64,000 nt of DNA from a virus, in the UHGV virus genome UHGV-1378817; one strand, given 5' to 3'. Of this stretch, positions 6,441 through 55,995 are shown one piece after another. The stretch's first letter is position 1. The number at the start of each line of letters is the position of its first letter. Both the position numbers and the translations under genes were made by a program. Below the pieces are notes generated by a model that was not told the origin of the DNA, ran no database searches, and saw only the letters and a list, made by a program, of their open reading frames with translations.

Positions 6441-7997
6441 TTAATTTTCCATGTTGGATATGGAATTATCTCTGGTTGATGACATCTTAGAAGTGCCGTT
6501 GCCAGTGGATCCTGCAGCCATTCCATCACCAGCCCTACTAATGTCCTGGCCCAAGAGCTTCATCAGCTCTTCCTGATCCATGTCCTCGTCAAATCTTTCA
6601 TCAAACCCGCCTACTTCAAGAATCTTATTAATTACTGCAGGAGTTTTTGGCAAGTAACCTACAGCACCGATCCTCTGGACAAACTTGGAGAAGCTCTCCA
6701 TATCCACTTCTTCAATCAGACCAGGTTTCAGTTTAGGCATATCATCATCTTCAAGGATGATACCATTCAATGCCAGAAGCTGTGGAATAAGATCTTTATT
6801 GAAGGCCTCAGTGATAATATCTATATCACGCTGAACAAAATGACCATGGATAGACTGTTTTGACTCAGACAGAGAGAAGGACCCAACGTTATCGTTACCG
6901 AGGTTAATAAAGCCAGCACCGAAACGGTCAAGAATCGCCTTCTTACGGGCATCAATCAAATCTTTAGTGGAATACTGCTTACCCATACCGTCAACCCCCT
7001 TCAGGGTCATGGAGTAAAGCTCTTTACCAGACTTATCTCTATCAGACGGAAGTATAAAGAAACTTTGCTCACCACTATGGGCGTTTGCTGCGTCAAGCAT
7101 AAGGTCTGCAACCATTCTCCCTTCCATTGAATTCGGGTCAATGCTGGCCTTGTTCAAAATATTGGAAGGAATTTTCAGCTCAAGCACACCACCAAGGTCT
7201 TTGGAACAGCCAACAACCTCAAGGTTTTCAATCAGAACTTTCTCACGGAAAGATCTGTAGCAACCTATCATCGGTGACACACCTGCAGGGTTAGATTCTG
7301 TTCCTGACAGGGTCATGAGCATAAGCTTTTTAGCAGGGATGAAAATTTCAGGCTCATTAAAGCCTTTTGAAGGCATTGCAGCAAGAGGTCCAGCCCAGCG
7401 TGCATTCTGAGTGTTTAGAAATGCATTAGGTGATTGATAAATACCTGTCAGTGTTCTACTATTCTTGTCAAAGACAAACGGCTCTGATCTGGACAAACTG
7501 GCCTGAGGTCGGAATGCAATTTTATCAATAAGAAGCATCCCGGTATATTTACCTTCTTTCTCTCTGCGGTATACTTTCTCAAACAGTGAAAAACCATACT
7601 CGTTAAAGGTAGCTGCGCTTCTTGCAATATCTCGAAGAGTTTGTTGGTTTGCCAAATTACGCAAAGAATACTCTATAAGCTCTGCAGCTTTCTTAGAGTC
7701 TTCACTTTTAACATTATAAAGGATCTTAAAATCATTGAATGCTTTCGTGATGAAAACATATTTTGTATCTAAGGCAGTAGCAACTGTGGAATCACATTTC
7801 ATAGTCTCCACTGTGGCAATCAGCTGAGGCCAACGCAATTCCTCAACCATCATAGATTGCGATTCTGCCATAATTTGGGAAAGTGCGCCAGAACCGATCT
7901 CACTCATACGAACATTATGAGTTGGTGCGCCTGCGTTCCCAGATTTATTCACAGTTTTGGCTGTGGCGTTGTGTTTCCTGCGGTTCTTTTTGGACAC
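6441..7997 (-). CDS. portal protein (putative)
   Basis: 518 aa ORF directly downstream of large terminase; size and position typical of portal. Confidence 0.55.
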   Translation of the reverse strand: MSKKNRRKHNATAKTVNKSGNAGAPTHNVRMSEIGSGALSQIMAESQSMMVEELRWPQLIATVETMKCDSTVATALDTKYVFITKAFNDFKILYNVKSEDSKKAAELIEYSLRNLANQQTLRDIARSAATFNEYGFSLFEKVYRREKEGKYTGMLLIDKIAFRPQASLSRSEPFVFDKNSRTLTGIYQSPNAFLNTQNARWAGPLAAMPSKGFNEPEIFIPAKKLMLMTLSGTESNPAGVSPMIGCYRSFREKVLIENLEVVGCSKDLGGVLELKIPSNILNKASIDPNSMEGRMVADLMLDAANAHSGEQSFFILPSDRDKSGKELYSMTLKGVDGMGKQYSTKDLIDARKKAILDRFGAGFINLGNDNVGSFSLSESKQSIHGHFVQRDIDIITEAFNKDLIPQLLALNGIILEDDDMPKLKPGLIEEVDMESFSKFVQRIGAVGYLPKTPAVINKILEVGGFDERFDEDMDQEELMKLLGQDISRAGDGMAAGSTGNGTSKMSSTRDNSISNMEN

Positions 7998-8099
7998 AAG
8001 CTTTACCCCTCAAAACAGTATAACAAAATAGCCCTCGTGTTAGAGGGCTAGTATCTCCGATTACTCTATTCTACCACATCTAATTAAGATTGGCAACAC

Positions 8100-9647
8100 T
8101 TAGATAAAACGCTTGAACATAGAAGGTGATGAGATTGATGGAATCACACAAGGAAGTGCTACCTCCTCTTTCTCCAGGAAATTAATCGCAGAAGCTACAC
8201 AGTCGGCCCAGTCGTCTTTTCTATTAAATGTTGATCTTTCCCCGTTGAATTTTTCAAGTTCAGTCAGAAATGCTTCCAGAGTATCAGGATGGAAACTGGA
8301 TTTTACAATCCTCACCATTCCTTGTTGGGCAAGATTGGCAAAAGGTGAGAACCTTGTCAGTTTAGATTTGTTGGAAGGCATTGGGTCTTCTTCAACCCTA
8401 AACCCTTCGGCGAGCAAGGATCTAGAGGAGGTTAAGAACTCACTCTTACCTGCCTGACCTGGGTCCACAGAGAAGACGATTATGCAATCATCACCATCAA
8501 ACTGCGCCTGTTTCCTGATGATCACATCTCGTTCACCAGCCTTTTTACAGAACTTGCCTTCCAGACCTGTGGAATACCTCCCGTCATCCACGTTCTCAGG
8601 ACAATAATCACCGGACAGGTAATAAAAGCCGTCGCTATCTTTACTTACCTTAACACTGGCGGTAAAGTCAGGAAACTTATTACCAGAAGTTCTCTCGGTT
8701 CCTGCCTTATCCCATGCCCTACAAGATACTGATCCAAGGGGCACTCTGTCGGCATCACGAAGGAAAGATCTTTGAAAATAGTTTGCACCCTCAGGCTTTG
8801 CAAACCAGTTACCATGGAGAAGCTGAGCTTTTTCAAGCTCGGGCAGACCTTCAAGGAAAGCAAGGTATTCTGGGTTGTCTCTTAAGCAGACAGGATTATC
8901 GAATATTGTTGCGCCTATAAACGAGAATGACAACGGTCTTGGCTTGATCTCCACACCCAGTCCGTTAACCGTGGTGTATTTCTCTATCAACTCTTCTTTA
9001 GAGTCTCCCCAGATAAATTCACCGTCGCGTCGGATAAAATATCTTTTCTTACCACATTTCTCCGGATCTGGATACCCTTCATCGTCCAACCACCATCTAA
9101 CCAGTTTGGCAAGCATGTGTTCTGAATCGGGGTTACAGCTGATAACCATTCTTGATGGATACTTTGACTGAGATCGCAGACGAGACATCAGATAGTCTAT
9201 CTGCTCCCATTCGAACTGCGTGCCCTCATCGAAGCAAACCATGGTATACTCAAGCCCTTGATGGTTAAGCTTATCTTGTACATACTCCATGTGGCAGTAT
9301 TTTACAACAGCTCCCTTTTTGCTTCTATCCCACTTGCCAGTGTTCGGATCAAACCGTGGAAAAATGAACTTATGATCCTTCTCTCTGAACTTTGGCTTAA
9401 TGTTTTCAGGCAGATCACTATAAATAGCTACTGCTTTAGGCCATAGTCCACCCTCACCTTCCAACTGTGGGGTTGTTCTTCGGAACATAACCACAGAGCT
9501 GTGGGGGTCATCAATAATTTTAAGTGGCATCAATTGCAAGAGGAACGACTTGCCAGACCCTGCGGCACCGCCGATTACCAAAATATCTGCATCGTTTTCG
9601 AGGATCATCTTCTGCTTTTCAGAACACGGTCCGTAAATCTTAGACAT
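8100..9647 (-). CDS. terL: terminase large subunit
   Basis: 515 aa; N-terminal Walker A VIGGAAGSGKS, central acidic motifs, C-terminal nuclease-like half; first gene of morphogenesis block. Confidence 0.8.
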   Translation of the reverse strand: MSKIYGPCSEKQKMILENDADILVIGGAAGSGKSFLLQLMPLKIIDDPHSSVVMFRRTTPQLEGEGGLWPKAVAIYSDLPENIKPKFREKDHKFIFPRFDPNTGKWDRSKKGAVVKYCHMEYVQDKLNHQGLEYTMVCFDEGTQFEWEQIDYLMSRLRSQSKYPSRMVISCNPDSEHMLAKLVRWWLDDEGYPDPEKCGKKRYFIRRDGEFIWGDSKEELIEKYTTVNGLGVEIKPRPLSFSFIGATIFDNPVCLRDNPEYLAFLEGLPELEKAQLLHGNWFAKPEGANYFQRSFLRDADRVPLGSVSCRAWDKAGTERTSGNKFPDFTASVKVSKDSDGFYYLSGDYCPENVDDGRYSTGLEGKFCKKAGERDVIIRKQAQFDGDDCIIVFSVDPGQAGKSEFLTSSRSLLAEGFRVEEDPMPSNKSKLTRFSPFANLAQQGMVRIVKSSFHPDTLEAFLTELEKFNGERSTFNRKDDWADCVASAINFLEKEEVALPCVIPSISSPSMFKRFI

Positions 9648-9934
9648 TAACCTCTCTCCTTTGGAAACAGTGTTCTAATATAGTCTTGCAAAATGATCAA
9701 TTTAGCTCTATCATTGCTACAAGACAGATTATTATCCCTCATAATGCCAGAATTCACTGCATCTGGAGCACCTTTCTTCAAAGGCATAGCTTTAGCAGGT
9801 GGTTTCATGGCACCTTCCGGGGGTTTAACAATCAACCTTCCTACATCCGGAGGGTCAATCTTGTATTCTCTCTCAACGCTGGTTGCACACCCACATAATA
9901 ACAAGCACACAATAAACAGTGTAGCAACTCTCAT
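9647..9934 (-). CDS. putative o-spanin (Rz1-like outer-membrane lipoprotein)
   Basis: 95 aa; signal peptide with Cys-containing lipobox-like LLLCGCATS, Pro-rich mature part; overlaps preceding gene by 4 nt. Confidence 0.5.
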   Translation of the reverse strand: MRVATLFIVCLLLCGCATSVEREYKIDPPDVGRLIVKPPEGAMKPPAKAMPLKKGAPDAVNSGIMRDNNLSCSNDRAKLIILQDYIRTLFPKERG

Positions 9935-10995: not shown

Positions 10996-11094
10996 GGTGC
11001 TAGGTGATGGAATCGAACCACCTATGTATTCAACGACTACCTCGTCTATTTTCAGGATTAAAAATCCTCGCCCTTGCCAAAGGGCTTACCTAGC
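10996..11094 (-). tRNA. atypical long tRNA-like element (~99 nt; anticodon loop reads UUU with 4-bp stem; long extra arm)
   Basis: Acceptor GCTAGGT/ACCTAGC and canonical T arm GGTGG-TTCGATT-CCATC are clear; anticodon arm and a 30-nt variable region are non-canonical; 3' end ACC not CCA. Confidence 0.35.
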
Positions 11095-13947: not shown

Positions 13948-14028
13948 TGTCCGTATCACGGACAGTTAGTGTCCGTATTACGGGCAGATGTGTCCGCGTG
14001 ACGGACAGTAGTGTCCGTATCACGGACA
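13948..14028. promoter_or_regulatory. array of four 17-bp palindromic operator-like sites (TGTCCGT-N3-ACGGACA)
   Basis: Sites at 13948-13964, 13970-13986, 13991-14007, 14012-14028; 21-22 bp centre-to-centre; sites 1 and 4 identical. Confidence 0.5.
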
Positions 14029-14103
14029 GTTACTAACCTCTGTTCCATAGCGAACATAAAACATACGAATCCTTATAGTACAGATATTTAAGTTTTTACT
14101 GGT

Positions 14104-14454
14104 CTAACCAGTTGTTGACATTCGAATAACCTCTTCTGGTGGCAAAACTTTGGAAAATGTGCATCTTTTACCTCTCCCTTGTGTGGATATTTCAACCACT
14201 CCTGCACATTCTAAAGTTTTAACGCACGCTGCTGCTTTTGTTTTCTTTATCCCAACATCTGCTGCAATTTTCCTTGTGCTGGGTGTGAAGCGTGAACTTC
14301 CTCCAAGCTTATACCAGTTGTGCAGGTAGCAGTATACGATCTTGTCATACAAGTCAAGAACAACAACCTCCCCAGTTGTGTCATTCAAAACTTTTGACAT
14401 AGACAGTATTTCAAGGGGGACTTTAAGATATAGCAGCTTATCCCCATCTTTCAT
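14104..14454 (-). CDS. hypothetical protein (possible DNA-binding protein)
   Basis: 116 aa basic ORF immediately upstream (on minus strand) of the palindrome array. Confidence 0.4.
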   Translation of the reverse strand: MKDGDKLLYLKVPLEILSMSKVLNDTTGEVVVLDLYDKIVYCYLHNWYKLGGSSRFTPSTRKIAADVGIKKTKAAACVKTLECAGVVEISTQGRGKRCTFSKVLPPEEVIRMSTTG

Positions 14455-14501
14455 ATCTCCTGATTCTCCTTGTGTGGCAATTTTCTTTAAAATAGCAGGG
14501 A

Positions 14502-15056
14502 TTACTCCCCGCTGTCAATAGCAAGACTCATTGCAATACTGTATGCCTCTTCTAATGGTAAGAGTCTACCCCACACATCCCAACCGACATCAAACTGCCT
14601 GCCAAACAACTGTTGTGTGGTTCCGTGAGCATGACCGAACAGTTGTACTGATCCGTGAGGCTTTCTGTTCCACTTTGCAAACTGGTAATGGCTCATACAG
14701 ATCAAATTCTTGTTGTGGCGAAGCTCGTAATAATCTACAACCTCATGATAGAACTCTTTCATAATTCTGACAGTCGTCCTTGTGTCATGGTTGCCACGAA
14801 CAAGAATAATATGTCCGTTCAACATATTTAGAATATCTGGAAGTAAGTTGTTGATATTTTTATCAGTAGTGCACGCAATATCTCCCAAGTGGAACACAGT
14901 GTCTGCAGGTGACACAACAGAGTTCCACTCGGCGATGATTCCCGCATTCATACTGTCAAGATTGTGATCATACTGAGATCTGTGTTTTTGACATGAATCA
15001 AACTCCATGACCCGCTGGTGGAGAAAGTGTGTGTCGCTTGTTACAAAGTATTTCAT
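14502..15056 (-). CDS. calcineurin-like metallophosphoesterase (candidate 2',3'-phosphatase/phosphoesterase)
   Basis: ORF track trimmed to ATG 15056 (MKYFVTSDTHF...) with GAGGA SD; motifs SDTHF (D-x-H), LGDIA (GD), GNHD, GHAHG. Confidence 0.7.
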   Translation of the reverse strand: MKYFVTSDTHFLHQRVMEFDSCQKHRSQYDHNLDSMNAGIIAEWNSVVSPADTVFHLGDIACTTDKNINNLLPDILNMLNGHIILVRGNHDTRTTVRIMKEFYHEVVDYYELRHNKNLICMSHYQFAKWNRKPHGSVQLFGHAHGTTQQLFGRQFDVGWDVWGRLLPLEEAYSIAMSLAIDSGE

Positions 15057-15063
15057 ACATTCC

Positions 15064-15474
15064 TCATTTAAGTTTAATGCAGTTTTTAAGCTGGCGTTCC
15101 ATACGATCCACAACCCTGTCTGGAACATCATGAATGCTTTTATTACCGTGTCGGTTTTCAACCACGATTACGGTATAATTATACCCATGGCTGATTGCCA
15201 TGTCAACATATTCTTGCACATGTTTTTCTTTTGTAAACGTATTACTTACCACGATACGGTCGTATCCCATACGCATCATATCTTCTACGTTATCTTTGCA
15301 CCATTTTGCTGCAAGTGTTACTTTACTTGCATCCCAGTTGTAATTGCCGTCATCGTCGTACCAGAACATGTCGTTCTCAAAATGTGGATACAGACCTTCT
15401 AAAGATAGCGCATTTGCCAGTGTTGATTTGCCAGACCCTGGTAGACCACGCACGATATATAGCATTTTAGACAT
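15064..15474 (-). CDS. polynucleotide kinase-like P-loop kinase
   Basis: Trimmed to ATG 15474 (MSKMLYIV...) with GGAGG SD; Walker A GLPGSGKST; layout resembles T4 Pnk kinase domain (IVVSNTF..., VPDRVVDRM). Confidence 0.6.
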   Translation of the reverse strand: MSKMLYIVRGLPGSGKSTLANALSLEGLYPHFENDMFWYDDDGNYNWDASKVTLAAKWCKDNVEDMMRMGYDRIVVSNTFTKEKHVQEYVDMAISHGYNYTVIVVENRHGNKSIHDVPDRVVDRMERQLKNCIKLK

Positions 15475-15592
15475 AGTAATCCTCCGTTTTAATTTCAAAG
15501 ATAGTATACCTAACTGTTTTGTTAATTTCAAGTGTTGACACTAGGTTATTTGTGTGGCAGGATAGACTGACAAAATGACAAATGAGGAACGT

Positions 15593-16510
15593 ATGATGAA
15601 GTATTTTAATGCAGACGACCTAGTTGACAAAGGTCTTGTAACCAGTAGATATTACCCAGATCTTGGGTTAAAGATCTATAAATACGCCAGAAAAGTATTT
15701 TACAACAATTTATGGCATTTGTCCCCTCGTTTACTGGAGTGCCGAGGCATTGTTGTCGGTAATGAAGGAAATGTTGTGGCATGGCCCTTCACAAAAGTGT
15801 TTAACTTGGGAGAAAACTCCACCAACCTGCCTGACAATAAGCTTGTGACGGCGGTAGAGAAAAAGAACGGATTCCTTGGTGTGGTATCATCTCATAAAGG
15901 TGAACTATTGTTCTCAACAACCGGATCTCTTGATTCTCCATATTGTAACCTTGCAAAGGAAACCATCCAGGAGCAATGCGGTAATTTAGATCTTATCAAG
16001 AAGGTTATGGGCAATGAAAACATGACATTCATGTTTGAAATTTGTCACCCTTCAGATCCGCATATTGTTCAGGAAGATCATGGCGCATATTTGATAGGTT
16101 GCAGGTATAATGATTCTGGAATAATGCTACCAGAGGCAGCTTTAGATGGGATTGCCAAATACCTTGGTGCAAAACGTCCTCACACTGTGCGTGAAATTCC
16201 GTTCAGCTATGCAAAAGAATTGGCTGCAGAAACAAGAGGTGAAGGGTATATGATTCGTAAGCCTTACTATCCTTATGATCTGCAGCTGAAGATCAAGTCT
16301 CCATACTATCTGGCACGGAAGGCCGTAATGAGGGGTAAAGCTTGGAAGATTTGGGATGATGATATCTTTAAACGTGTTGACGAAGAGTTTTACGGCATGG
16401 TAAACTTCATTCGCAACAACTACACAGAGGATGTATGGAACTGCCTCCTGGAGCAGGAACGCCGTGAGATACTTGACTACTATTTCCACAACGAGGACTA
16501 TATGCAATGA
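15593..16510 (+). CDS. RNA ligase-like nucleotidyltransferase
   Basis: Motif I K-x-N-G (EKKNGFLG), motif IV EGYMIRK, motif V LKIKSP; start moved to ATG 15593 with GAGGA SD; divergent from kinase/phosphatase pair. Confidence 0.55.
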   Translation: MMKYFNADDLVDKGLVTSRYYPDLGLKIYKYARKVFYNNLWHLSPRLLECRGIVVGNEGNVVAWPFTKVFNLGENSTNLPDNKLVTAVEKKNGFLGVVSSHKGELLFSTTGSLDSPYCNLAKETIQEQCGNLDLIKKVMGNENMTFMFEICHPSDPHIVQEDHGAYLIGCRYNDSGIMLPEAALDGIAKYLGAKRPHTVREIPFSYAKELAAETRGEGYMIRKPYYPYDLQLKIKSPYYLARKAVMRGKAWKIWDDDIFKRVDEEFYGMVNFIRNNYTEDVWNCLLEQERREILDYYFHNEDYMQ

Positions 16511-16857
16511 AGAAGTTGATTGTGTGGCTGGATGACTTGAGAGACCCGTCAAATTATGGGCTCCCAGACGCTATTTGGCTAAAGAATTCCTCCGAGTTTA
16601 TGGATTTTATTAACGATAATAGAAAGCTCTACAGACGCGTTTCTGAGTGGCATATGGACAACGACCTTGGAGAGGTATTAGAAGGGTACGATTGTCTATC
16701 TATGTTGGAGGAAAAATTTGTATTTGGTAAGCCTCCTGTAGTTGACAACGTGAAGATTTTCGTGCATACTTCTAACCCATCAGCTGCTCGTAAATTCATG
16801 CTTGCAGCTGACTCGTTTAAAAAGTTTGGAATAGAGATTAAACAAAACATCTACTGA
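16507..16857 (+). CDS. hypothetical protein
   Basis: 116 aa; ATGA start/stop overlap with RNA ligase gene; N-terminus MKKLIVWLDDLRDP. Confidence 0.45.
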   Translation: MKKLIVWLDDLRDPSNYGLPDAIWLKNSSEFMDFINDNRKLYRRVSEWHMDNDLGEVLEGYDCLSMLEEKFVFGKPPVVDNVKIFVHTSNPSAARKFMLAADSFKKFGIEIKQNIY

Positions 16858-16865
16858 GGACACTT

Positions 16866-17627
16866 ATGCGACGACTTATTATTATCTCCGGTGCTGGTTT
16901 GAGCGCTGAATCTGGTATTCCCACTTTCCGATCTGGTAGCACTGCAATGTGGGAGAATTTCAGCATCGATGAGGTGTGCAACATCCACACCTTTGCCAAG
17001 AACTACTATAAGGTGCATGACTTTTACAATGCACGTCGTGTAGCTCTAGGCAGTGTTGAGCCTAACCTTGCACATCTTCGGATCGCTGAGTGGTATTCCC
17101 GCTGGTCTGGTCGTGTGATCAACCTTACCACCAATGTAGATGATTTGCTGGAGCGTGCTGGTGTAAAACATGAAGATATTTTACATGTCCACGGGTATTT
17201 GCCAGAAATAGTCTATGAGGACGATGAAGGAAGTGACGTCATTAAGGACATTGGATACTCTGAGGTAGACGCAGGAAAGTATACCTGGGTTAAGCCTAAT
17301 GTGGTGTTCTTCGGAGAAGTAGCTCCGAAGTATACAGACATGTATGACCTGTTGACTTCTCTTACGAGCAATGATATGGTTATCCTTGTAGGGTGCTCCA
17401 ACACAGTTATCAATTTTAACTGGGAGCTATTCCCTGCCTGCAATAAGGGAACAAAACTGCTGATCGTTAACAAATACGACTCACAGCAGCTAGGGGAGAA
17501 TGGCATTTCACGTAGTGATATTTACCAATATGAGGATCGCGGCATCCCAGTTTGGTTTAACGGGGCGGTTGATGCTTTCTCTGATAAAACATTCATTGAG
17601 ACCGTAGAAAACTTTATGGAACTTTAA
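16866..17627 (+). CDS. Sir2-family NAD-dependent deacylase/ADP-ribosyltransferase
   Basis: Sirtuin motifs GAGLSAESGIPTFR, TTNVDDLLERAG, catalytic HG (LHVHGY), VILVGCSNTV; no CxxC zinc module seen. Confidence 0.75.
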   Translation: MRRLIIISGAGLSAESGIPTFRSGSTAMWENFSIDEVCNIHTFAKNYYKVHDFYNARRVALGSVEPNLAHLRIAEWYSRWSGRVINLTTNVDDLLERAGVKHEDILHVHGYLPEIVYEDDEGSDVIKDIGYSEVDAGKYTWVKPNVVFFGEVAPKYTDMYDLLTSLTSNDMVILVGCSNTVINFNWELFPACNKGTKLLIVNKYDSQQLGENGISRSDIYQYEDRGIPVWFNGAVDAFSDKTFIETVENFMEL

Positions 17628-17640
17628 AAGGAGACCTTTA

Positions 17641-18354
17641 ATGCTGAATACCAAATTAATTGACAACCTGGAAAAACTGTCCCAACCTGAAAACTACCTT
17701 TGGTCTGCCAACTGGGTGGAAAACTGGAACCGTGTGGCAGCTAAAGTGAAAAAATCATACACACCATTCGAATTACAGCTTAGCTTCATTGAGGAAGAGT
17801 TCAATGAAGTTTTGGAAGAGCTGGAGAAAGGTGATGGCGGAGATCACCTGCTAAAAGAGGCCTGCGATCTTCACGTTGTCACAAGTTATGCCGCTTATCT
17901 TGTTAATGATAATCACGAAAAGTGGTCAAACCTGTTTGATAATCCACAGGGTCTTAAGTTCAAGATCGGTGAGTTCTATGATACACTGATCGCTGCGAAA
18001 AACACCTCTAAGCAAAAAGCGTCCGCTTACCGCTTAGCAGAGTTGTCAACAGCTTTGCTGTTCCAGCTTCGCGGCGATGTGTGCGGGATGATGCGTAAGG
18101 TTCTCAAATCGAATGACAGCAAGTTTGCACGGGTCAACCATCTACGGTATTCACACGGTGCCAGTGCAGATATGCCTGCTGAACAACTCATCGAGTTGGA
18201 GATTAAAGATCTTGAGCGACGCTTTGATGGTCGATATGAAGGTTTTGTTGCTAAGGAAGAATTCTACAACGGTAATAAAGTTATCATATTCCTTGACAGC
18301 AAAGGTAAGATCATGAAGCCTTCGAGCTTCAAGGATGTAACAGAGTATATTTAA
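17641..18354 (+). CDS. MazG-like nucleotide pyrophosphohydrolase domain protein
   Basis: N-terminal EEEFNEVLEELEKGD...EACDL acidic motifs resembling MazG/HisE fold; 237 aa with an extra C-terminal domain. Confidence 0.4.
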   Translation: MLNTKLIDNLEKLSQPENYLWSANWVENWNRVAAKVKKSYTPFELQLSFIEEEFNEVLEELEKGDGGDHLLKEACDLHVVTSYAAYLVNDNHEKWSNLFDNPQGLKFKIGEFYDTLIAAKNTSKQKASAYRLAELSTALLFQLRGDVCGMMRKVLKSNDSKFARVNHLRYSHGASADMPAEQLIELEIKDLERRFDGRYEGFVAKEEFYNGNKVIIFLDSKGKIMKPSSFKDVTEYI

Positions 18355-18360
18355 CAACAT

Positions 18361-18387
18361 AGCCGGGATTACCCGGCTTTACTTGTT
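18361..18387 (+). terminator. intrinsic terminator-like hairpin
   Basis: AGCCGGG-att-ACCCGGCT followed by TTTACTTGTT, 7 nt after stop of 17641-18354. Confidence 0.45.
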
Positions 18388-18726
18388 GTGGAAAGTATGC
18401 AAGTGAGGAAGATAGTTATGTACAAGCACTCTAGAGATCTTGAAAACGATGCTGTGTTTGGGGATCAGATGAAAGAGTTGGTTAAACTCATAGGCAGGAT
18501 AGAGGATAAGTTTGACACTAAGATCTACATCGACAGCAAAGTATTCAACCACAAAATATGGACAAATCTGTGTGTTGGACTACATGGAGATAAAGATGTG
18601 GTAAATTTAGTTGTAATTAAGTTCATAGTGTGGCAGAATAAAACTATAAATTATTACGATCCACACCTGCTTGTTTACCCGATAAAAGACCTATTAGATA
18701 AGGAGGACTGCAGTGCCGTTATTTAA
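18388..18726 (+). CDS. hypothetical protein
   Basis: 112 aa ORF. Confidence 0.35.
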   Translation: MESMQVRKIVMYKHSRDLENDAVFGDQMKELVKLIGRIEDKFDTKIYIDSKVFNHKIWTNLCVGLHGDKDVVNLVVIKFIVWQNKTINYYDPHLLVYPIKDLLDKEDCSAVI

Positions 18727-18982
18727 TCTTGCTAAACCTGTAGAAGCACACCAGTTTGACGGAAGCTCTTCATCAGTATCTGATCTGCAACGGTGGATTG
18801 ATACAGGTGTGTTTACATCGTCACCTGTTCGTACCAGAGATCTTCGTCGCATGTGTGAGCTTGTCGAGCCGTTTGGTAACCTGGTCTTGTACCAGGGAGA
18901 TTGGTTAGTTGACTTTATGGGAGACTGGTTGGTAATGAGTAAAGAAGAGATGTTTAACATTTTTAAGGAAGAGGCCGAGTAA
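18713..18982 (+). CDS. hypothetical protein
   Basis: GTG start with AAGGAGG SD 6 nt upstream; 89 aa. Confidence 0.4.
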   Translation: MPLFNLAKPVEAHQFDGSSSSVSDLQRWIDTGVFTSSPVRTRDLRRMCELVEPFGNLVLYQGDWLVDFMGDWLVMSKEEMFNIFKEEAE

Positions 18983-20265
18983 TGCATCAGATCAAAACAA
19001 CACTGTACGCACTGAACAAAGATGGCAGCTACCAACAGTGGAAAGTATTCACGGATGGTGATAAGGTTATCGTAGAGTTTGGCAAGCTTGATGGTAAACT
19101 GCAATACAAAGAGACGGTATGCACGCCTAAGAACGTAGGTCGTGCCAACGAGACTACCGCTGAGCAACAGGCCGAGCTTGAGGCTATTAGCAAGTGGGAA
19201 AAACAAGTCCGTCTTGGGTATGTTGAGAATATGGAAGATTGCGAGCAGGGTGTTGACCTTTTACCCATGCTGGTGCATGACTACCTGAAGCGTGGCAAGG
19301 CTCTTAAATTACCTTGCTGGATCTTGCGTAAGTTAGATGGCCTTCGTCTACTTGTTGTTTTCCAGAATGGTGAGCCCAAATTTATTTCCCGTGGTAATAA
19401 GTCCTACCCTATTCAAGGAAAGCTTCTGGAGCAACTTCGCTCTTTCCACCTCACCACTGGGATTAAACAGCTCGACGGAGAGCTCTATATTCATGGTCTG
19501 CCTCTGCAGAAAATAGTTTCTCTTGCTAAACGATGGCGCACACAGGAAGAAATTCAGGCCGAGATCGATAAAGACTACAAGGCAGATAAAAAACGCCGTC
19601 AGGCTGCTATTAAGGCAGGTTTAGCAACATACAAAAACTTCAATAAGATGGACATTCCTGTTGATGTTGAGCCTGTTCGTGATGATTTGCGTTACGGAGG
19701 GTATTGCAGCTACGACTTAGAGTATCATATTTTCGATATCCCTAGCGATAAGGTGTGGTGGGATCCTGAAACAGAGTCTGGGCGCTGTAAGGATCTTATG
19801 GAGGCAAATGGTGCCATTTCTTCTTTGATGCTTGATCATATTAAGGTTGTTGATGCAGAGCTTGCATATACAGTTGATCGGTGCGAAGAGTCTGTTGGTA
19901 TATTTATGTCTGAGGGATATGAAGGTACCATTATGCGTAACTTCTGTGGTAAGTATGAGTATGGTCAGCGAACATCTGAAGCATTGAAATGGAAAAAGTT
20001 CAACGACGCAGAGGTGAAAGTTATTGACGTTGAGAAAGATAAGAATGATGAAGGTGTTCTTATCTGTGTTGACAAGGAGGGTGTTGTTGTTAAAATGAAG
20101 ATGAAAGGCACGCACGAGGAGCGTAGCTATGACAGGATGCAGGAAATGATCGGCAAGTTTGTCACCTTCAAATATCAAGCAAGGACAGAAGACAACAATT
20201 ACCAATTCCCTGTCGGTATCTGCGTCCGAAATGTTAACCCGGACACTTGGGAGGTGCTGGAATGA
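18982..20265 (+). CDS. ATP-dependent DNA ligase
   Basis: Motif I KLDGLR (K-x-D-G), EGTIMR motif IV-like, LKWKK motif V-like; 427 aa. Confidence 0.65.
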   Translation: MHQIKTTLYALNKDGSYQQWKVFTDGDKVIVEFGKLDGKLQYKETVCTPKNVGRANETTAEQQAELEAISKWEKQVRLGYVENMEDCEQGVDLLPMLVHDYLKRGKALKLPCWILRKLDGLRLLVVFQNGEPKFISRGNKSYPIQGKLLEQLRSFHLTTGIKQLDGELYIHGLPLQKIVSLAKRWRTQEEIQAEIDKDYKADKKRRQAAIKAGLATYKNFNKMDIPVDVEPVRDDLRYGGYCSYDLEYHIFDIPSDKVWWDPETESGRCKDLMEANGAISSLMLDHIKVVDAELAYTVDRCEESVGIFMSEGYEGTIMRNFCGKYEYGQRTSEALKWKKFNDAEVKVIDVEKDKNDEGVLICVDKEGVVVKMKMKGTHEERSYDRMQEMIGKFVTFKYQARTEDNNYQFPVGICVRNVNPDTWEVLE

Positions 20266-35327: not shown

Positions 35328-37447
35328 AAGTTGTAAAACGGGACGGTAGAGAAGAGTTCTATAACGGAATTAAGGTGATCAAGGCGGCAGAGTCCGCCTT
35401 ACTTGAGTCTGGGCATACTGAAGAAGAAGCTTACCGGATCGCCTGCGCGGTTAATGAAGTTGTTGCTAACAATCTACCAACCGACCAGTGCACGATCTCT
35501 GTAAAAAATATCCATATCCTTGTTGAAGATGCTCTTATGGATATGGGTTTAAAATGTGCAGCCAGAGAATACATCCAGTATAGACAGACAAGAGATAATA
35601 ACAGAGAGGCAGGTGGAAAACTGCTTGCAGATATTAGTGGCTTCTTGGATCGAACTTGTGATGAATTTACAAAAGAAAACGCAAATAAGCCTACTAATCA
35701 TGTACACACTCATCGCGACCTGCTTGCGGGTATTCTTAGCAAACACCTTGCATCAACACAGATCCTGCCAGACCGTGTCTCCGAAGAGCACAATAAGGGC
35801 TTCATCCATGTGCATGATCTTGACTACTTGATCAGTCCGTTAACAAACTGTTGTTTGGTAAACTATCCAGATATGTTGGAAAACGGATTCAACATTGGTA
35901 ACGCCCATGTCAGTAAGCCGAAGTCAATAGGGGTTGCAACAACAATCCTTAGCCAAATCTCTAGTGCGGTAGCTAGTGCTCAATATGGTGGTCAGACTAT
36001 GAGCCATATTGATCATTATCTGGCACAGTATGCTGAAGCAACCTATGAGAAGAACCTTAAATTTTGCCAGGAACATTGGTTGCCAGATGCTGAGAGTGTT
36101 GCAATGCAAATGACAGATAAAGACGTATTTGACAGCATGCAGACTTTGCTCTATCAAATCAATACGTTAACTTCTGTCAACGGGCAAACTCCATTCATCA
36201 CATTGAGTTTAGGACTGGATACCTCGGTCTTTGGTAGAATGATTACCAAAAACTACCTGAAAGTCCACAAAATGGGTCTTGGTGAAGAACGTATTACACC
36301 TGTGTTTCCTAAAGTGCTGTTCTTCCTAGAAGAGGGTGTCAACATGAACCCTGGGGATCCTAACTATGATTTGAAACGATTAGCTCTGGAATGCTGTGCA
36401 GAACGTATCTACCCTGACTTCGTGTCTGTACCACTAAATAGAAAAGTGACAGGCTCGACAGATGGCAAAGTAACGAGCATGGGTTGCCGGAGTTTTCTTA
36501 GCAAATACAATGACTTGGAAACAGGCGAGGAGAAATATCTTGGCAGATTTAACTTAGGCGTTGTTAGCCTTAACCTGCCAATGATTGCGGCAAAAGCTAA
36601 GACGGAAGGTGTTGATTTCTTTGCAGTTCTTGACGAATACTTGGATCTTGCATACGAGGCTCACCTTGTAAGGGTTAATCGTCTAAAAGGAACAAAGGCA
36701 GGGCAGAACCCCATCATGTGGTGTGAAGGCGCTCTTGCTCGCCTGGATCCTGAAGAGAGTATTGATAAACTCTTCTATGACGGGTACGCTTCCATCAGTA
36801 TTGGGTATATCGGTGTGTATGAAACCTGTCAGATTTTGGGTAGAGAGGGTGACAAGGCTTTAGCTCTTGGAATCCTTCAGCACATGAGAGATGCTTGTGA
36901 GCGATACAAGAAGGAAAGTAGACTAGCATTTAGCTTGTACGGCACTCCTTCTGAGAGTCTATGCTATAAAGCTGCAACCTGTCTGGATCGTGAATATCCG
37001 GAAGTGTTAAAGCACGATCATGAATATCTCACCAACAGTTTCCATCAGCCAGTATGGATAAATAGCTCTCCTTTTGATAAGTGGGAGTATGAGGAAGGTT
37101 TTGCTATGATCTCCTCTGGTGGCAACATCGGATACGTAGAGACACCTAACCTGAAAAACAACCTGGATGCTTTAGAGGCTCTTGTTGACTTCGGGTATAA
37201 ACACATTATGTATTTTGGTATTAACCAACCTGTGGATAAATGTCTCAAGTGCGGTTTCTCTGGTGAGTTCAGTGCAACAGCTAAAGGCTTTGTATGCCCA
37301 GAGTGTGGAAACCATGAAGAGGGAACGATCAGTGTAATTCGACGTGTGTCTGGATACCTTTCCAGTCCTAACTCCCGTCCTTACAATAAAGGTAAGCAAG
37401 CGGAAGTTATCGAGCGAGTTAAGCACTACGGAAGTTGTGGTTGCTGA
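35324..37447 (+). CDS. nrdD: anaerobic ribonucleoside-triphosphate reductase
   Basis: 707 aa; C-terminal zinc ribbon CLKCG...CPECG and glycyl-radical motif RVSGYL. Confidence 0.9.
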   Translation: MKVVKRDGREEFYNGIKVIKAAESALLESGHTEEEAYRIACAVNEVVANNLPTDQCTISVKNIHILVEDALMDMGLKCAAREYIQYRQTRDNNREAGGKLLADISGFLDRTCDEFTKENANKPTNHVHTHRDLLAGILSKHLASTQILPDRVSEEHNKGFIHVHDLDYLISPLTNCCLVNYPDMLENGFNIGNAHVSKPKSIGVATTILSQISSAVASAQYGGQTMSHIDHYLAQYAEATYEKNLKFCQEHWLPDAESVAMQMTDKDVFDSMQTLLYQINTLTSVNGQTPFITLSLGLDTSVFGRMITKNYLKVHKMGLGEERITPVFPKVLFFLEEGVNMNPGDPNYDLKRLALECCAERIYPDFVSVPLNRKVTGSTDGKVTSMGCRSFLSKYNDLETGEEKYLGRFNLGVVSLNLPMIAAKAKTEGVDFFAVLDEYLDLAYEAHLVRVNRLKGTKAGQNPIMWCEGALARLDPEESIDKLFYDGYASISIGYIGVYETCQILGREGDKALALGILQHMRDACERYKKESRLAFSLYGTPSESLCYKAATCLDREYPEVLKHDHEYLTNSFHQPVWINSSPFDKWEYEEGFAMISSGGNIGYVETPNLKNNLDALEALVDFGYKHIMYFGINQPVDKCLKCGFSGEFSATAKGFVCPECGNHEEGTISVIRRVSGYLSSPNSRPYNKGKQAEVIERVKHYGSCGC

Positions 37448-37510
37448 TTCTTGACAAAAGCCACAAGGATGTGGCATATTATTGACACACAGTGAGCTAG
37501 GAGGTGCAGT

Positions 37511-37627
37511 ATGTCATCAGGTATTTATAAAATTTGCAAGTGCGGCTGTAGTTGCAATCTTCGTTGGTGCAAGGCACTAGACGATTTTATTTGGCATTGC
37601 CCTAAATGTGATGCGGAGTATCTATGA
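37511..37627 (+). CDS. small Cys-rich zinc-ribbon-like protein (38 aa)
   Basis: MSSGIYKICKCGCSCNLRWCKALDDFIWHCPKCDAEYL; GGAGGTG SD 6 nt upstream; ATGA overlap with nrdG; below ORF-track size cutoff. Confidence 0.4.
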   Translation: MSSGIYKICKCGCSCNLRWCKALDDFIWHCPKCDAEYL

Positions 37628-47474: not shown

Positions 47475-47795
47475 ATGCAAATTGAAATCACTGGCAACAA
47501 TGTAGAAATCACAGAAGGTATGGTATCTTTTATTTCCCGCAAAATGTCCAAGCTGGAGCGTTTACATCCCTCTGTTAACTATGCACGTGTGAGTGTAAAA
47601 GTTGAAAATGATCACCAGGAAGTTATGGCGTTCATTTTTGACAATTCTGGAAAAGAAGTTATTGCCAAGGCTAAAGGCAGTGATGCTTACGAGGCAACTG
47701 ACCGTATGGTAGATGTTGCAGCACGTCAGCTGGCTAAATGCGGTGGAAAGAAAGGTAAGGGGAAAGGCAAAGTAAAGATTGACTTTGGAGAATGA
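47475..47795 (+). CDS. hpf: ribosome hibernation promoting factor / RaiA-like protein
   Basis: N-terminus MQIEITGNNVEITEGM...KLERL...VKVE close to E. coli HPF/RaiA as recalled; Lys/Gly-rich C-terminal tail. Confidence 0.7.
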   Translation: MQIEITGNNVEITEGMVSFISRKMSKLERLHPSVNYARVSVKVENDHQEVMAFIFDNSGKEVIAKAKGSDAYEATDRMVDVAARQLAKCGGKKGKGKGKVKIDFGE

Positions 47796-47804
47796 GGTGC
47801 TACA

Positions 47805-47906
47805 ATGGGTGTGATTAAGAAATTAGTCCCAAATGTAGAGATTGCATGCTTTGAAATTATGTTTGCAATCGCAGTTGTAGTTAATGTGTTAGGTTACGGC
47901 TATTAA
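47805..47906 (+). CDS. small hydrophobic peptide (33 aa)
   Basis: MGVIKKLVPNVEIACFEIMFAIAVVVNVLGYGY; GAGGTG SD; below ORF-track cutoff. Confidence 0.3.
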   Translation: MGVIKKLVPNVEIACFEIMFAIAVVVNVLGYGY

Positions 47907-55977: not shown

Positions 55978-55995
55978 GATAATTCAGTTAAAAAA

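What the first reader, a model, noticed from the sequence alone, without database searches (positions are those of the whole stretch)
14502..16510. Three-gene RNA healing-and-sealing set (metallophosphoesterase, Pnk-like kinase, RNA ligase) beside the tRNA cluster
Two minus-strand genes encode a calcineurin-like phosphoesterase (D-x-H, GD, GNHD, GHAHG) and a T4 Pnk-like P-loop kinase (GLPGSGKST). They sit divergent from a plus-strand nucleotidyltransferase with RNA-ligase-type motifs (K-x-N-G, EGYMIRK, LKIKSP). Together these supply the three activities needed to repair a tRNA cut by a host anticodon nuclease (remove the 2',3'-phosphate, phosphorylate the 5'-OH, ligate). T4 does this with a fused kinase/HAD-phosphatase; here the phosphatase is a metallophosphoesterase and all three are separate genes, closer to bacterial Pnkp/Hen1-type systems. 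The window also carries a separate ATP-dependent DNA ligase (18982-20265), so this ligase is unlikely to be the replicative one.
Basis: partly seen in the sequence, partly recalled or inferred. Interest (0 to 1): 0.72.

Follow-up and report, generated by a model that had tools for sequence, protein, structure and literature searches.

The report
Phage RNA-repair gene set, already described
An rV5-like E. coli phage carries separate kinase, phosphoesterase and RNA-ligase genes that probably mend RNA cut by host defence nucleases, but public records already name them and a 2022 paper describes this neighbourhood in phage V5, so it is real and not new.

Summary
The window is a Vequintavirus (rV5-like E. 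coli myophage, 98% identical to phage RudolfGeigy). It encodes a metallophosphoesterase (14502-15056, -), a 136-aa P-loop kinase (15064-15474, -) and, divergently, an Rnl1-type RNA ligase (15593-16510, +).

Profile and fold searches place the ligase with T4 Rnl1 and fungal Trl1 tRNA ligases, not with DNA ligases. They place the kinase with polynucleotide 5'-OH kinases, not with nucleotide kinases. All seven metal ligands of the phosphoesterase are invariant across five genera.

The three genes stay adjacent in many unrelated phage groups. Some phages fuse kinase and ligase. Others swap in an Rnl2-type RNA ligase.

- The unit is larger. Ligase, cREC, Sir2 and a MazG-like gene form one operon.
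- The phosphoesterase is aq_1665-like, not the lambda-phosphatase type of bacterial Pnkp, and there is no Hen1.

GenBank already names the genes. Iyer et al. 2022 (PMC9503650) describe this neighbourhood with phage V5 as prototype. No biochemistry exists. Transposon data for a related phage show the three genes are dispensable on K-12.

Verdict: real, well supported as an RNA healing-and-sealing set, already known, of modest interest.

The parts
14502..15056 (-). Stand-alone binuclear metallophosphoesterase, 184 aa, aq_1665-like. It is the candidate 2',3'-cyclic-phosphate / 3'-phosphate end-healing enzyme.
   Evidence: Pfam Metallophos 5e-7 and Metallophos_2 3e-6; phrog_547 2e-51. A profile of five orthologues hits PDB 1XM7 (aq_1665) at 2.8e-17. 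D8, H10, D59, N89, H90, H123, H142 and H144 are invariant across five phage genera. The GAGGA ribosome-binding site overlaps the kinase stop codon.
15064..15474 (-). Stand-alone 136-aa P-loop kinase. It is the candidate polynucleotide 5'-OH kinase and has no fused phosphatase domain.
   Evidence: AAA_33 7e-11; phrog_2071 3e-58 and phrog_505 'polynucleotide kinase' 4e-10. Profile hits in PDB are RNA/DNA 5'-OH kinases: RazKIN 9D8A 6e-6, Pnkp1 4XRP 1e-6 to 1e-4, T4 Pnk 1e-5, CthPnkp kinase 8e-4. The AF2 model has pLDDT 91. Foldseek top hits are the CthPnkp kinase and T4 Pnk at TM 0.72-0.76, against 0.47-0.60 for small-molecule kinases. D35 aligns with the T4 Pnk general base D35.
15475..15592 (.). 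Divergent intergenic region carrying back-to-back promoter-like elements for the kinase-phosphoesterase unit (-) and the ligase operon (+).
   Evidence: Minus-strand TTGAAA-17-TATACT at 15531-15503 matches 10 of 12. A plus-strand TTGACA lies at 15535-15540, but no good -10 element was found. These are consensus matches only.
15593..16510 (+). Short-form (305 aa) Rnl1-family ATP-dependent RNA ligase, the sealing enzyme. An alternative start lies at 15575.
   Evidence: PF09511 6e-15; phrog_562 1e-66. The profile hits T4 Rnl1 2C5U at 4.5e-15. Ten of 11 T4 Rnl1 essential residues are conserved: R51, K68, F70, K90, G93, E149, E217, G218, K233, K235; T4 K119 becomes T. The AF2 model has pLDDT 92.6. 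Foldseek top hits are Trl1-LIG, T4 Rnl1 and Rnl3 at about 1e-12; the cellular DNA ligases reach only 3e-3 or worse, and one viral DNA ligase (ASFV) reaches 1e-5.
16507..16857 (+). cREC (cyclic-phosphate-processing receiver-like) protein, translationally coupled to the ligase through an ATGA overlap.
   Evidence: PF20274 cREC_REC 1.3e-14; phrog_1479 2e-35. The overlap is seen. It is also found next to the ligase in phi92, Mydo and 10 of 80 IMG/VR loci.
16866..17627 (+). Class-III-like sirtuin (Sir2) without the zinc-binding cysteines. The literature proposes it as a KptA/Tpt1-like enzyme that removes 2'-phosphate.
   Evidence: PF02146 3e-27; phrog_2162 5e-109. The closest PDB entries are SIRT5 and CobB at 2e-21, and the catalytic His is retained in HVHG. 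The proposal is in PMC9503650 section 3.7.3.
17641..18354 (+). MazG-like nucleotide pyrophosphohydrolase homologue, the last gene of the plus-strand operon.
   Evidence: phrog_671 6e-22; no Pfam hit. Homologues occur in phi92 and in 12 of 80 IMG/VR loci.
18361..18378 (+). GC-rich hairpin (AGCCGGG-ATTA-CCCGGCT), terminator-like, that closes the ligase-cREC-Sir2-MazG operon.
   Evidence: The same position is annotated as an ARNold terminator in phage Gotham.
10751..11563 (-). Cluster of seven phage tRNA genes (Pro, Met/Ile-CAU, Thr, an atypical 97-99 nt Lys-UUU-like tRNA, Ser, Tyr, Arg-UCU). They are possible substrates, or a parallel counter-measure.
   Evidence: ARAGORN; Rfam; GenBank annotation of RudolfGeigy.

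Best explanation
This is a phage-encoded RNA end-healing and sealing module. Metal-independent host ribonucleases, such as anticodon nucleases and toxin RNases, leave a 2',3'-cyclic phosphate and a 5'-OH.

Proposed steps:
1. The 136-aa kinase transfers a phosphate from an NTP to the 5'-OH.
2. The binuclear metallophosphoesterase opens and removes the 2',3'-cyclic or 3'-phosphate to give a 3'-OH.
3. The Rnl1-type ligase is adenylylated on Lys90, transfers AMP to the 5'-phosphate and seals the break.

In rV5-like phages the ligase is co-expressed with cREC, a zinc-less sirtuin and a MazG-like hydrolase. Iyer et al. 2022 proposed that these form an NAD+-dependent branch for cyclic-phosphate and 2'-phosphate clean-up.

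Shown here: the family and fold of each protein, retention of catalytic residues, operon structure, co-inheritance, fusion, and ligase displacement.
Inferred: every enzymatic activity, the RNA (probably tRNA) substrate, and the counter-defence role.
For: 1. Ligase.
- PF09511 at 6e-15.
- The profile hits T4 Rnl1 at 4.5e-15, with 10 of 11 essential residues conserved, including the adenylylated lysine.
- The high-confidence model matches Trl1-LIG, T4 Rnl1 and Rnl3 at about 1e-12.

2. Kinase.
- The best PDB relatives by profile are RNA/DNA 5'-OH kinases. RazKIN is an experimentally shown tRNA-splicing RNA kinase (PMC11571804).
- By fold, TM is 0.72-0.76 to the CthPnkp and T4 Pnk kinases, against 0.47-0.60 for small-molecule kinases.
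- The general-base Asp is conserved.

3. Phosphoesterase. All metallophosphoesterase metal ligands are invariant at 31-40% overall identity.

4. Linkage.
- The trio is adjacent in phi92, Pseudomonas JG004 and REC, Vibrio Cody (T5-like), Proteus Mydo, Acinetobacter Ab_121 and metagenomic contigs, with shuffled gene order.
- In 52 IMG/VR ligase loci with at least 4 kb on both sides, 47 have the kinase, 44 the phosphoesterase and 41 both. The median gaps are 0 nt and 397 nt.
- In INPHARED the per-genus counts of ligase and kinase records are almost identical: 199/198 Escherichia, 177/173 Pseudomonas, 36/36 Klebsiella, 24/24 Acinetobacter.

5. Fusion. Eleven loci encode a kinase-ligase fusion; L072:7527-8825 carries AAA_33 at 16-115 and RNA_lig_T4_1 at 184-367. 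phrog_8238 matches both window proteins.

6. Displacement. In freshwater phage contigs the coupled kinase-phosphoesterase pair sits 1.8 kb from a PF09414 (Rnl2-type) RNA ligase instead.

7. Dispensability. In the related phage Bas54 the ligase, kinase and phosphoesterase are 'Non-essential' on K-12 (56/60, 33/36 and 26/27 TA sites disrupted). This is what one expects of an accessory counter-defence function (HIDEN-SEQ preprint, Extended Data Table 8).

8. An independent published prediction exists for this same neighbourhood (PMC9503650).
Against: - No enzymatic or genetic test of these proteins exists.
- The phosphoesterase family (aq_1665-like) has no characterised member, and no RNA-end activity is known for it.
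- The ligase lacks most of the C-terminal domain that gives T4 Rnl1 its tRNA preference. About 70 helical residues stand in for about 120, and the profile alignment stops at T4 residue 249. T4 K119 is replaced by Thr. It reaches only 39 bits against the 242-bit equivalog cut-off of TIGR02308.
- The kinase's sequence similarity to known polynucleotide kinases is modest (E 1e-4 to 1e-6).
- Retron Eco2, which nicks tRNA acceptor stems, still defends against Vequintavirinae and Stephanstirmvirinae (PMC12916289). The set is therefore not a general antidote to tRNA cleavage.
- Bas54 mutants in these genes were not depleted in the uropathogenic-isolate comparison that is readable (log2FC +0.13 to +0.43, adjusted p at least 0.75).
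- Part of the observed synteny could reflect common ancestry of these large myoviruses.
Confidence: 0.72

Rival explanations
1. The genes process NAD+/ADP-ribose-derived small molecules rather than RNA. The kinase, phosphoesterase, cREC, Sir2 and MazG would act on ADPr, cyclic ADPr or nucleotide signals made by host defence systems. The ligase-like nucleotidyltransferase would adenylylate a small phosphorylated acceptor.
For: - Genes of an NAD+ salvage or reconstitution type (NAMPT-like plus PRPP-synthetase-like) lie next to the trio in phi92, JG004, Cody, REC, Mydo, L011, L016 and L058.
- cREC, Sir2 and MazG are all linked to NAD/ADPr chemistry in the literature.
- Some metallophosphoesterases hydrolyse ADP-ribose, and T4 Rnl1 can make dinucleoside polyphosphates (my own knowledge, not tested here).
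Against: - The kinase's fold and profile neighbours are polynucleotide or tRNA kinases. NR, adenylate and gluconate kinases score clearly worse.
- The ligase keeps the residues T4 Rnl1 needs for the RNA-joining steps.
- The ligase can be replaced by an Rnl2-type RNA ligase.
- The window itself has no NAD salvage genes.
- Most loci have the trio without cREC, Sir2 or MazG.
Confidence: 0.1
2. The kinase and phosphoesterase heal DNA ends (5'-OH, 3'-phosphate) for the nearby ATP-dependent DNA ligase, in the manner of mammalian PNKP. This would serve phage DNA repair or replication. The RNA ligase would be an unrelated neighbour.
For: - A DNA ligase gene lies within 1-4.4 kb on the same strand in the window and in 25 of 80 IMG/VR loci.
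- T4 Pnk and the Mucorales kinase also phosphorylate DNA (PMC11571804 abstract).
- There is a weak NCBIfam hit to the ligase-associated endonuclease PdeM (9e-4, far below its cut-off).
Against: - The tight coupling is to the RNA ligase: median gap 0 nt, fusion proteins, and displacement by another RNA ligase family.
- Many loci have the trio but no DNA ligase in the flanks (55 of 80).
Confidence: 0.07
3. The ligase serves mainly as a tail-fibre attachment factor, like the second function of T4 gp63, or the set matures the phage's own RNAs (for example tRNA precursors). Under this view it does not repair host-inflicted damage.
For: - The annotation 'RNA ligase and tail fiber attachment catalyst' is carried by phrog_562 and by many GenBank records.
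- The set lies 2.9 kb from the tRNA cluster.
Against: - The tail-fibre label is inherited from T4 by homology only.
- The catalytic residues are under purifying selection.
- No intron is present in any of the seven tRNAs. The long one has an extra arm, not an intron.
- The genes are dispensable for plaque formation in Bas54, which argues against a role in virion assembly or in obligatory tRNA maturation.
Confidence: 0.04

Closest known systems
Sirtuin-centred phage RNA-repair gene neighbourhood, type 2, 'prototyped by Escherichia phage V5 and Proteus phage Mydo' (Iyer, Burroughs, Anantharaman & Aravind 2022, Viruses 14:1977, PMC9503650, section 3.7.3)
   Same: It is the same locus in the same phage group: sirtuin, T4-like tRNA ligase, cREC, nucleotide kinase, MazG and a calcineurin-like phosphoesterase. 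All six were found here.
   Different: The paper centres the system on the sirtuin and calls the phosphoesterase 'occasional'. In this survey the conserved core is ligase, kinase and phosphoesterase (41 of 52 well-flanked loci). Sirtuin and cREC occur in a minority, 10 of 80 each. The system is still only a computational prediction.
Phage T4 tRNA repair: Pnkp (PseT) plus Rnl1 (gp63), countering the PrrC anticodon nuclease
   Same: The logic is the same: 5'-OH kinase, 3'-end phosphatase, Rnl1-family ligase. The ligase is homologous to T4 Rnl1 with catalytic residues conserved. The kinase is homologous to the T4 Pnk kinase domain.
   Different: The kinase has no fused HAD phosphatase. A separate metallophosphoesterase replaces it. 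The ligase is 305 aa with a much shorter C-terminal helical module and falls far below the T4 RnlA equivalog cut-off. cREC, Sir2 and MazG partners are added.
Bacterial Pnkp/Hen1 (Clostridium thermocellum) and Pnkp1-Rnl-Hen1 (Capnocytophaga) RNA repair systems
   Same: A metallophosphoesterase-superfamily enzyme supplies the 3'-end healing. In Pnkp1-Rnl-Hen1 the ligase is a separate polypeptide. The kinase fold is closest to the CthPnkp kinase, and by sequence profile it is close to Pnkp1.
   Different: The phosphoesterase is aq_1665-like, not lambda-phosphatase-like. The ligase is Rnl1/Trl1-like. There is no Hen1 methyltransferase, so no 2'-O-methyl 'immunisation' of the repaired junction. All three activities are on separate small proteins.
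Fungal/plant Trl1 plus Tpt1 tRNA splicing pathway, including the stand-alone Mucorales ligase and RNA 5'-OH kinase (PMC10946426, PMC11571804)
   Same: The ligase model's best structural matches include Trl1 ligase domains. The stand-alone Mucorales RNA kinase is the top PDB profile hit for the kinase family. An NAD+-using enzyme sits in the same operon.
   Different: There is no 2H cyclic phosphodiesterase and no Tpt1/KptA. cREC and a sirtuin are only hypothetical analogues. Whether the ligase requires a 2'-phosphate is unknown.

Membership tests
Rnl1-family ATP-dependent RNA ligase (T4 RnlA type, Pfam PF09511) | Matches the family profile above the curated cut-off | tested here: met
   PF09511 scores 56 bits against a gathering score of 28.3, E 6e-15. 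A profile of 30 homologues hits T4 Rnl1 2C5U at 4.5e-15.
Rnl1-family ATP-dependent RNA ligase (T4 RnlA type, Pfam PF09511) | Covalent nucleotidyltransferase motifs with the adenylylated lysine and the residues essential in T4 Rnl1 | tested here: met
   T4 R54, K75, F77, K99, G102, E159, E227, G228, K240 and K242 correspond to window R51, K68, F70, K90, G93, E149, E217, G218, K233 and K235. All are invariant in 38 homologues. T4 K119 becomes Thr. The list of essential T4 residues comes from my knowledge of the Shuman-lab mutagenesis.
Rnl1-family ATP-dependent RNA ligase (T4 RnlA type, Pfam PF09511) | Functional equivalence to T4 RnlA (NCBIfam equivalog TIGR02308), including the C-terminal tRNA-specificity domain | tested here: not met
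   The score is 39.3 bits against a cut-off of 242. The alignment to T4 Rnl1 ends at residue 249, and the C-terminal module is about 70 aa instead of about 120. It belongs to the family but is not an orthologue-grade equivalent.
Rnl1-family ATP-dependent RNA ligase (T4 RnlA type, Pfam PF09511) | Seals 5'-phosphate/3'-OH RNA ends with ATP | not testable with these tools
   This needs biochemistry.
T4 Pnkp (PseT) bifunctional polynucleotide kinase-phosphatase | P-loop 5'-OH kinase domain with the general-base Asp | tested here: met
   GxxGxGK(S/T) is present and D35 aligns to T4 D35. Fold TM is 0.72-0.76 to T4 Pnk.
T4 Pnkp (PseT) bifunctional polynucleotide kinase-phosphatase | Fused C-terminal HAD-type 3'-phosphatase domain | tested here: not met
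   The protein is 136 aa and ends with the kinase domain. All 120 closest homologues are 107-164 aa.
Bacterial Pnkp/Hen1 RNA repair system | Lambda-phosphatase-like metallophosphoesterase healing domain | tested here: not met
   The profile hits aq_1665 (1XM7) at 2.8e-17 and no lambda-phosphatase or Pnkp phosphatase chain at E up to 1. hhalign against a NinI/lambda-phosphatase-like protein gives probability 0.25%. Only the superfamily (Pfam Metallophos) is shared.
Bacterial Pnkp/Hen1 RNA repair system | Hen1 RNA 3'-terminal 2'-O-methyltransferase partner | tested here: not met
   None of the nine genes around the set has a methyltransferase domain. The only methyltransferases annotated in the equivalent of the whole window are DNA N6-adenine enzymes.
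Bacterial Pnkp/Hen1 RNA repair system | Kinase, phosphatase and ligase joined in one polypeptide | tested here: not met
   Here they are three separate genes on two strands. Related phages do have kinase-ligase fusions, but these lack the phosphoesterase.
Iyer et al. 2022 type-2 sirtuin RNA-repair neighbourhood (phage V5 / Mydo) | Co-located sirtuin, T4-like ligase, cREC, nucleotide kinase, MazG, with or without a calcineurin-like phosphoesterase | tested here: met
   All six lie within 14502-18354. The window is 98% identical to rV5-like genomes. The same set is found in Mydo, except that no MazG homologue was detected in the Mydo stretch fetched. The MazG assignment rests on phrog_671 only (6e-22).
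Trl1/Tpt1-type (2'-phosphate-dependent) healing and sealing | 2H-family cyclic phosphodiesterase and a Tpt1/KptA 2'-phosphotransferase | tested here: not met
   No 2H or KptA domain appears in the neighbourhood or in the annotation of the window's equivalent. cREC and Sir2 are proposed analogues only.
Trl1/Tpt1-type (2'-phosphate-dependent) healing and sealing | The ligase requires a 2'-phosphate at the 3'-OH end | not testable with these tools
   Structural similarity to Trl1-LIG does not settle this.

The most novel reading that the evidence does not exclude
In rV5-like phages the six-gene module would run an NAD+-dependent repair branch unknown in biochemistry.
1. cREC, a receiver-fold protein, opens the 2',3'-cyclic phosphate.
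2. The Trl1-like ligase seals the break and leaves a 2'-phosphate.
3. A zinc-less sirtuin, rather than Tpt1/KptA, removes that 2'-phosphate with NAD+.
4. The phosphoesterase and MazG clear the ADP-ribose by-products.

This would be the first sirtuin shown to act on RNA and the first activity shown for cREC. The idea is Iyer et al.'s (PMC9503650). My evidence neither supports nor excludes it.
Probability: 0.2. Interest if true: 0.75.

Novelty: already known. Interest (0 to 1): 0.3.

Why it matters
T4 Pnkp/Rnl1 against PrrC is the textbook case of a phage repairing host-cut tRNA, and it is almost the only one studied. This trio is a different hardware solution: a mini-kinase, an aq_1665-type metallophosphoesterase and a short Rnl1. 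It is present in more than 600 sequenced phages of Escherichia, Pseudomonas, Vibrio, Klebsiella, Acinetobacter and others, many of them phage-therapy candidates.

Showing what it repairs would have three consequences:
- It would identify which RNA-cleaving defences these phages escape.
- It would give a function to an uncharacterised metallophosphoesterase family.
- In the rV5/Mydo subgroup it would test the proposal that a sirtuin and a receiver-like protein process RNA ends.

As a discovery from this window it adds little, because the genes are already annotated and the neighbourhood is already published.

Tried and rejected
- Single-sequence PDB searches for the ligase and kinase gave only noise. 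Profiles were needed.
- I asked whether the 97-99 nt tRNA at 10998-11094 carries an intron that would need a splicing ligase. It does not. The extra roughly 27-30 nt form a variable-arm-like hairpin after an intact UUU anticodon loop. The tRNA-splicing idea was dropped.
- I tested whether the phosphoesterase is of the lambda-phosphatase/CthPnkp type. It is not.
- I looked for phosphoesterase fusion proteins among its homologues and found none. All are 149-239 aa stand-alone proteins.
- More distant phosphoesterase relatives are not always linked to the kinase or ligase (L013, L014). The phosphoesterase family is broader than the repair module: 1358 phage records against 622-762.
- PADLOC gave no meaningful defence-system match.
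- An Rfam scan of the whole window found only tRNAs.
- Burroughs & Aravind 2016 (NAR, RNA repair systems) could not be read because it is not held.
- The unknown 229-236 aa ORF upstream of the kinase-ligase fusions has no Pfam or PHROG match, so I could not tell whether it is the missing phosphoesterase.


Full report
**What the window is.**
The region 14000-18400 is 97-98% identical over its full length to more than 100 rV5-like E. coli myophages (Vequintavirus). The best match is phage RudolfGeigy at 98.1%. In those records the genes under the finding are already named 'putative phosphoesterase', 'polynucleotide kinase' (or '3'-phosphatase, 5'-polynucleotide kinase'), 'RNA ligase' and 'sirtuin domain NAD-dependent deacetylase'.

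**Observation.**
The three ORFs and all quoted motifs are present, and the profile assignments are significant.
- Pfam: Metallophos 5e-7, AAA_33 7e-11, RNA_lig_T4_1 6e-15, all above gathering score.
- PHROGs: phrog_547, phrog_2071 (plus phrog_505 'polynucleotide kinase') and phrog_562, at 1e-51 to 1e-66.

Gene starts need small corrections.
- The phosphoesterase starts at 15056. Its GAGGA ribosome-binding site overlaps the kinase stop codon, which implies translational coupling.
- The kinase starts at 15474, behind a GGAGGA site.
- The ligase probably starts at 15593 or 15596, behind GAGGA, rather than at 15575.

The separate DNA ligase at 18982-20265 is real.

**The unit is larger than three genes.**
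- The ligase stop overlaps the start of a cREC_REC gene in an ATGA overlap (PF20274, 1.3e-14).
- A sirtuin (PF02146, 3e-27) and a MazG-like gene (phrog_671, 6e-22) follow.
- A GC-rich hairpin at 18361-18378 closes the operon. The same position is annotated as a terminator in phage Gotham.
- Kinase and phosphoesterase are transcribed divergently from a 118-bp intergenic region.

**Ligase.**
- One sequence alone does not reach any solved structure.
- A profile of 30 homologues hits T4 Rnl1 at 4.5e-15 over the nucleotidyltransferase domain.
- Ten of the eleven residues known to be essential in T4 Rnl1 are conserved and invariant in the family, including the adenylylated lysine (K90 here). T4 K119 is a threonine.
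- The AlphaFold model is confident (pLDDT 92.6).
- Its best structural matches are fungal Trl1 ligase domains, T4 Rnl1 and archaeal Rnl3, at about 1e-12. Rnl2 and Rnl5 follow. The cellular DNA ligases appear only at 3e-3 and worse, and the only DNA ligase ranked higher is the viral ASFV enzyme at 1e-5.
- So the refutation condition 'ligase groups with DNA ligases or capping enzymes' is not met.
- It is not an orthologue-grade T4 RnlA. It scores 39 bits against the 242-bit TIGR02308 cut-off. Its C-terminal helical module is about 70 residues, not the roughly 120-residue domain that gives T4 Rnl1 its tRNA preference.

**Kinase.**
- The family is very large. 7989 of 8000 scored candidates have E at or below 1e-3, and almost all are 125-140 aa stand-alone proteins.
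- Profiles hit RNA/DNA 5'-OH kinases. These are Pnkp1 of the Pnkp1-Rnl-Hen1 system (1.3e-6), T4 Pnk (1e-5) and the CthPnkp kinase domain.
- They also hit RazKIN, a stand-alone tRNA-splicing RNA 5'-OH kinase characterised by the Shuman lab (PMC11571804).
- D35 aligns with the T4 Pnk general base.
- The model (pLDDT 91) superposes best on the CthPnkp kinase, T4 Pnk and phosphoseryl-tRNA kinase (TM 0.72-0.76). Gluconate, shikimate, adenylate and UMP/CMP kinases reach only 0.47-0.60.
- So the condition 'kinase groups with dNMP or adenylate kinases' is not met either.

**Phosphoesterase.**
- All canonical metal ligands are invariant across five genera at 31-40% identity: D8, H10, D59, N89, H123, H142 and H144.
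- The only solved relative is the uncharacterised Aquifex aq_1665 (1XM7, 2.8e-17).
- No lambda-phosphatase or Pnkp phosphatase chain is hit. hhalign against a NinI-like lambda-type phosphatase gives probability 0.25%.
- There is no Hen1, RtcB, 2H or KptA gene in the window's equivalent.

**Are the three genes a functional unit?**
- Loci seeded with the ligase in phi92 (Stephanstirmvirinae), Pseudomonas JG004 (Pakpunavirus) and REC (Otagovirus), and Vibrio Cody (T5-like Demerecviridae) all have the kinase and phosphoesterase within a few genes. The order is shuffled and identity is 31-47%.
- Proteus Mydo and Acinetobacter Ab_121 show the same.
- Of 80 ligase loci from IMG/VR, 66 carry the kinase and 63 the phosphoesterase.
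- Of the 52 loci with at least 4 kb on both sides, 47, 44 and 41 carry the kinase, the phosphoesterase and both, respectively. The median gaps to the ligase are 0 nt and 397 nt.
- In INPHARED the per-genus numbers of records with the ligase and with the kinase are almost identical.
- Eleven IMG/VR loci encode a single kinase-ligase fusion protein, confirmed by Pfam in L072:7527-8825. One PHROG (8238) matches both window proteins.
- In freshwater phage contigs the translationally coupled kinase-phosphoesterase pair sits 1.8 kb upstream of an Rnl2-type (PF09414) RNA ligase instead.
- Fusion, plus displacement of the ligase by another RNA ligase family, is strong contextual evidence that the kinase and phosphoesterase serve an RNA ligase.
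- cREC, Sir2 and MazG are minority additions (10, 10 and 12 of 80). A DNA ligase is a frequent but looser neighbour (25 of 80; median gap 1.8 kb).

**Literature.**
[quoted passage not shown] - They propose NAD+-dependent clean-up of cyclic-phosphate and 2'-phosphate ends, with the sirtuin acting like KptA. cREC is defined in their 2021 jumbo-phage paper (PMC7824862).
- I found no biochemical or genetic test of these proteins.

**Experimental data found.**
- The only relevant data are transposon maps of the related phage Bas54, which has the same gene order and gene lengths.
- Ligase, kinase, phosphoesterase, sirtuin and the MazG-like gene are 'Non-essential' on K-12. cREC is 'Intermediate'.
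- None is depleted in the uropathogenic-isolate comparison that is readable (HIDEN-SEQ preprint, Extended Data Table 8).
- This fits an accessory counter-defence role but does not show one.
- Retron Eco2, which nicks tRNA acceptor stems, still restricts Vequintavirinae and Stephanstirmvirinae (PMC12916289).

**Mechanism and confidence.**
- The best explanation is a three-enzyme RNA healing-and-sealing pathway (0.72). The kinase supplies the 5'-phosphate, the metallophosphoesterase supplies the 3'-OH and the Rnl1-type ligase seals the break.
- tRNA broken by host anticodon nucleases is the most plausible substrate, but it is untested.
- The shortened C-terminal domain means tRNA specificity cannot be assumed from T4.
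- The rivals are small-molecule NAD/ADPr processing (0.10), DNA-end healing for the nearby DNA ligase (0.07), and a tail-fibre or own-RNA-maturation role (0.04).
- The small-molecule rival is supported by recurrent adjacency to NAMPT-like and PRPP-synthetase-like genes in other phages.

**Verdict.**
The finding is real and its core interpretation holds. It is an already annotated, already published, computationally predicted system.

- The conserved core is ligase, kinase and an aq_1665-type phosphoesterase, rather than the sirtuin.
- Natural kinase-ligase fusions exist.
- The ligase can be displaced by an Rnl2-type ligase.
- The system is not of the Pnkp/Hen1 type.

Interest 0.3.

Noticed in passing
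window 10998-11094 (-): An atypical 97-99 nt tRNA. Rfam tRNA scores 35.5 bits and ARAGORN reports a 4-base anticodon. By eye the anticodon loop is TTTTTAA (UUU, Lys, as in the GenBank annotation of RudolfGeigy), followed by an extra hairpin arm of about 27-30 nt. That is a class-II-like extra arm on a Lys tRNA. tRNA-Lys is the classic target of PrrC and PARIS, so an odd-shaped copy could be a nuclease-evading substitute.
   Followed up: partly
window about 53374-55906: A gene-free stretch of about 2.5 kb where transcription diverges, holding the lowest GC of the window (0.379 in 54001-56000). The HIDEN-SEQ preprint reports that the equivalent ~2 kb intergenic region of phage Bas54 tolerates no transposon insertions. 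It is possibly an origin or another essential cis element.
   Followed up: no
window 15178-15206 (-): A perfect 12-of-12 sigma-70 consensus (TTGACA-17-TATAAT) lies inside the kinase gene, upstream of the phosphoesterase start. It could be an internal promoter that expresses the phosphoesterase and the downstream HTH gene independently of the kinase.
   Followed up: no
window 16866-17627 (+): The sirtuin keeps the GAGxS, TxNxD and catalytic-His motifs. It has no cysteines in the segment that forms the zinc-binding module in SIRT5 and CobB (residues about 113-135).
   Followed up: partly
window 14104-14454 (-): An HTH protein (phrog_12838 'replication initiation protein', DUF6945/HTH_36) lies directly downstream of the phosphoesterase. 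Its Bas54 orthologue has low transposon read counts (13.6 against 140-400 for its neighbours) and is classed 'Intermediate', unlike the repair genes.
   Followed up: no
loci L003, L004, L005, L006, L011, L016, L017, L058: In many other phages the kinase/ligase/phosphoesterase trio sits next to NAMPT-like and PRPP-synthetase-like genes (an NAD+ reconstitution-type pair). The rV5-like window has no such genes but has the sirtuin instead.
   Followed up: partly
L057-L061, L064, L065, L069-L072 (for example L072:7527-8825): These loci encode natural kinase-ligase fusion proteins of about 421-432 aa and lack the aq_1665-type phosphoesterase nearby. A conserved 229-236 aa ORF with no Pfam or PHROG match lies just upstream (L058:6283-6993, L072:6398-7087) and might be an unrecognised end-healing enzyme.
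   Followed up: partly
GenBank MG065645-MG065652 (hits H27, H39, H68, H69): Records labelled 'Campylobacter phage' with host C. jejuni are 98-99% identical at protein level to E. coli rV5-like phages. This is probably a host or label error in the public records.
   Followed up: no
window about 7514-9648 (-) and about 35381-37548 (+): In the RudolfGeigy annotation the terminase large subunit is joined from three pieces and the anaerobic NTP reductase from two. This suggests intervening sequences, yet no Rfam group I or group II intron reaches the gathering score in the window.
   Followed up: partly
window about 47565-47882: The equivalent gene in RudolfGeigy is annotated as a ribosome hibernation factor. 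It is another translation-related accessory gene in the same early region.
   Followed up: no
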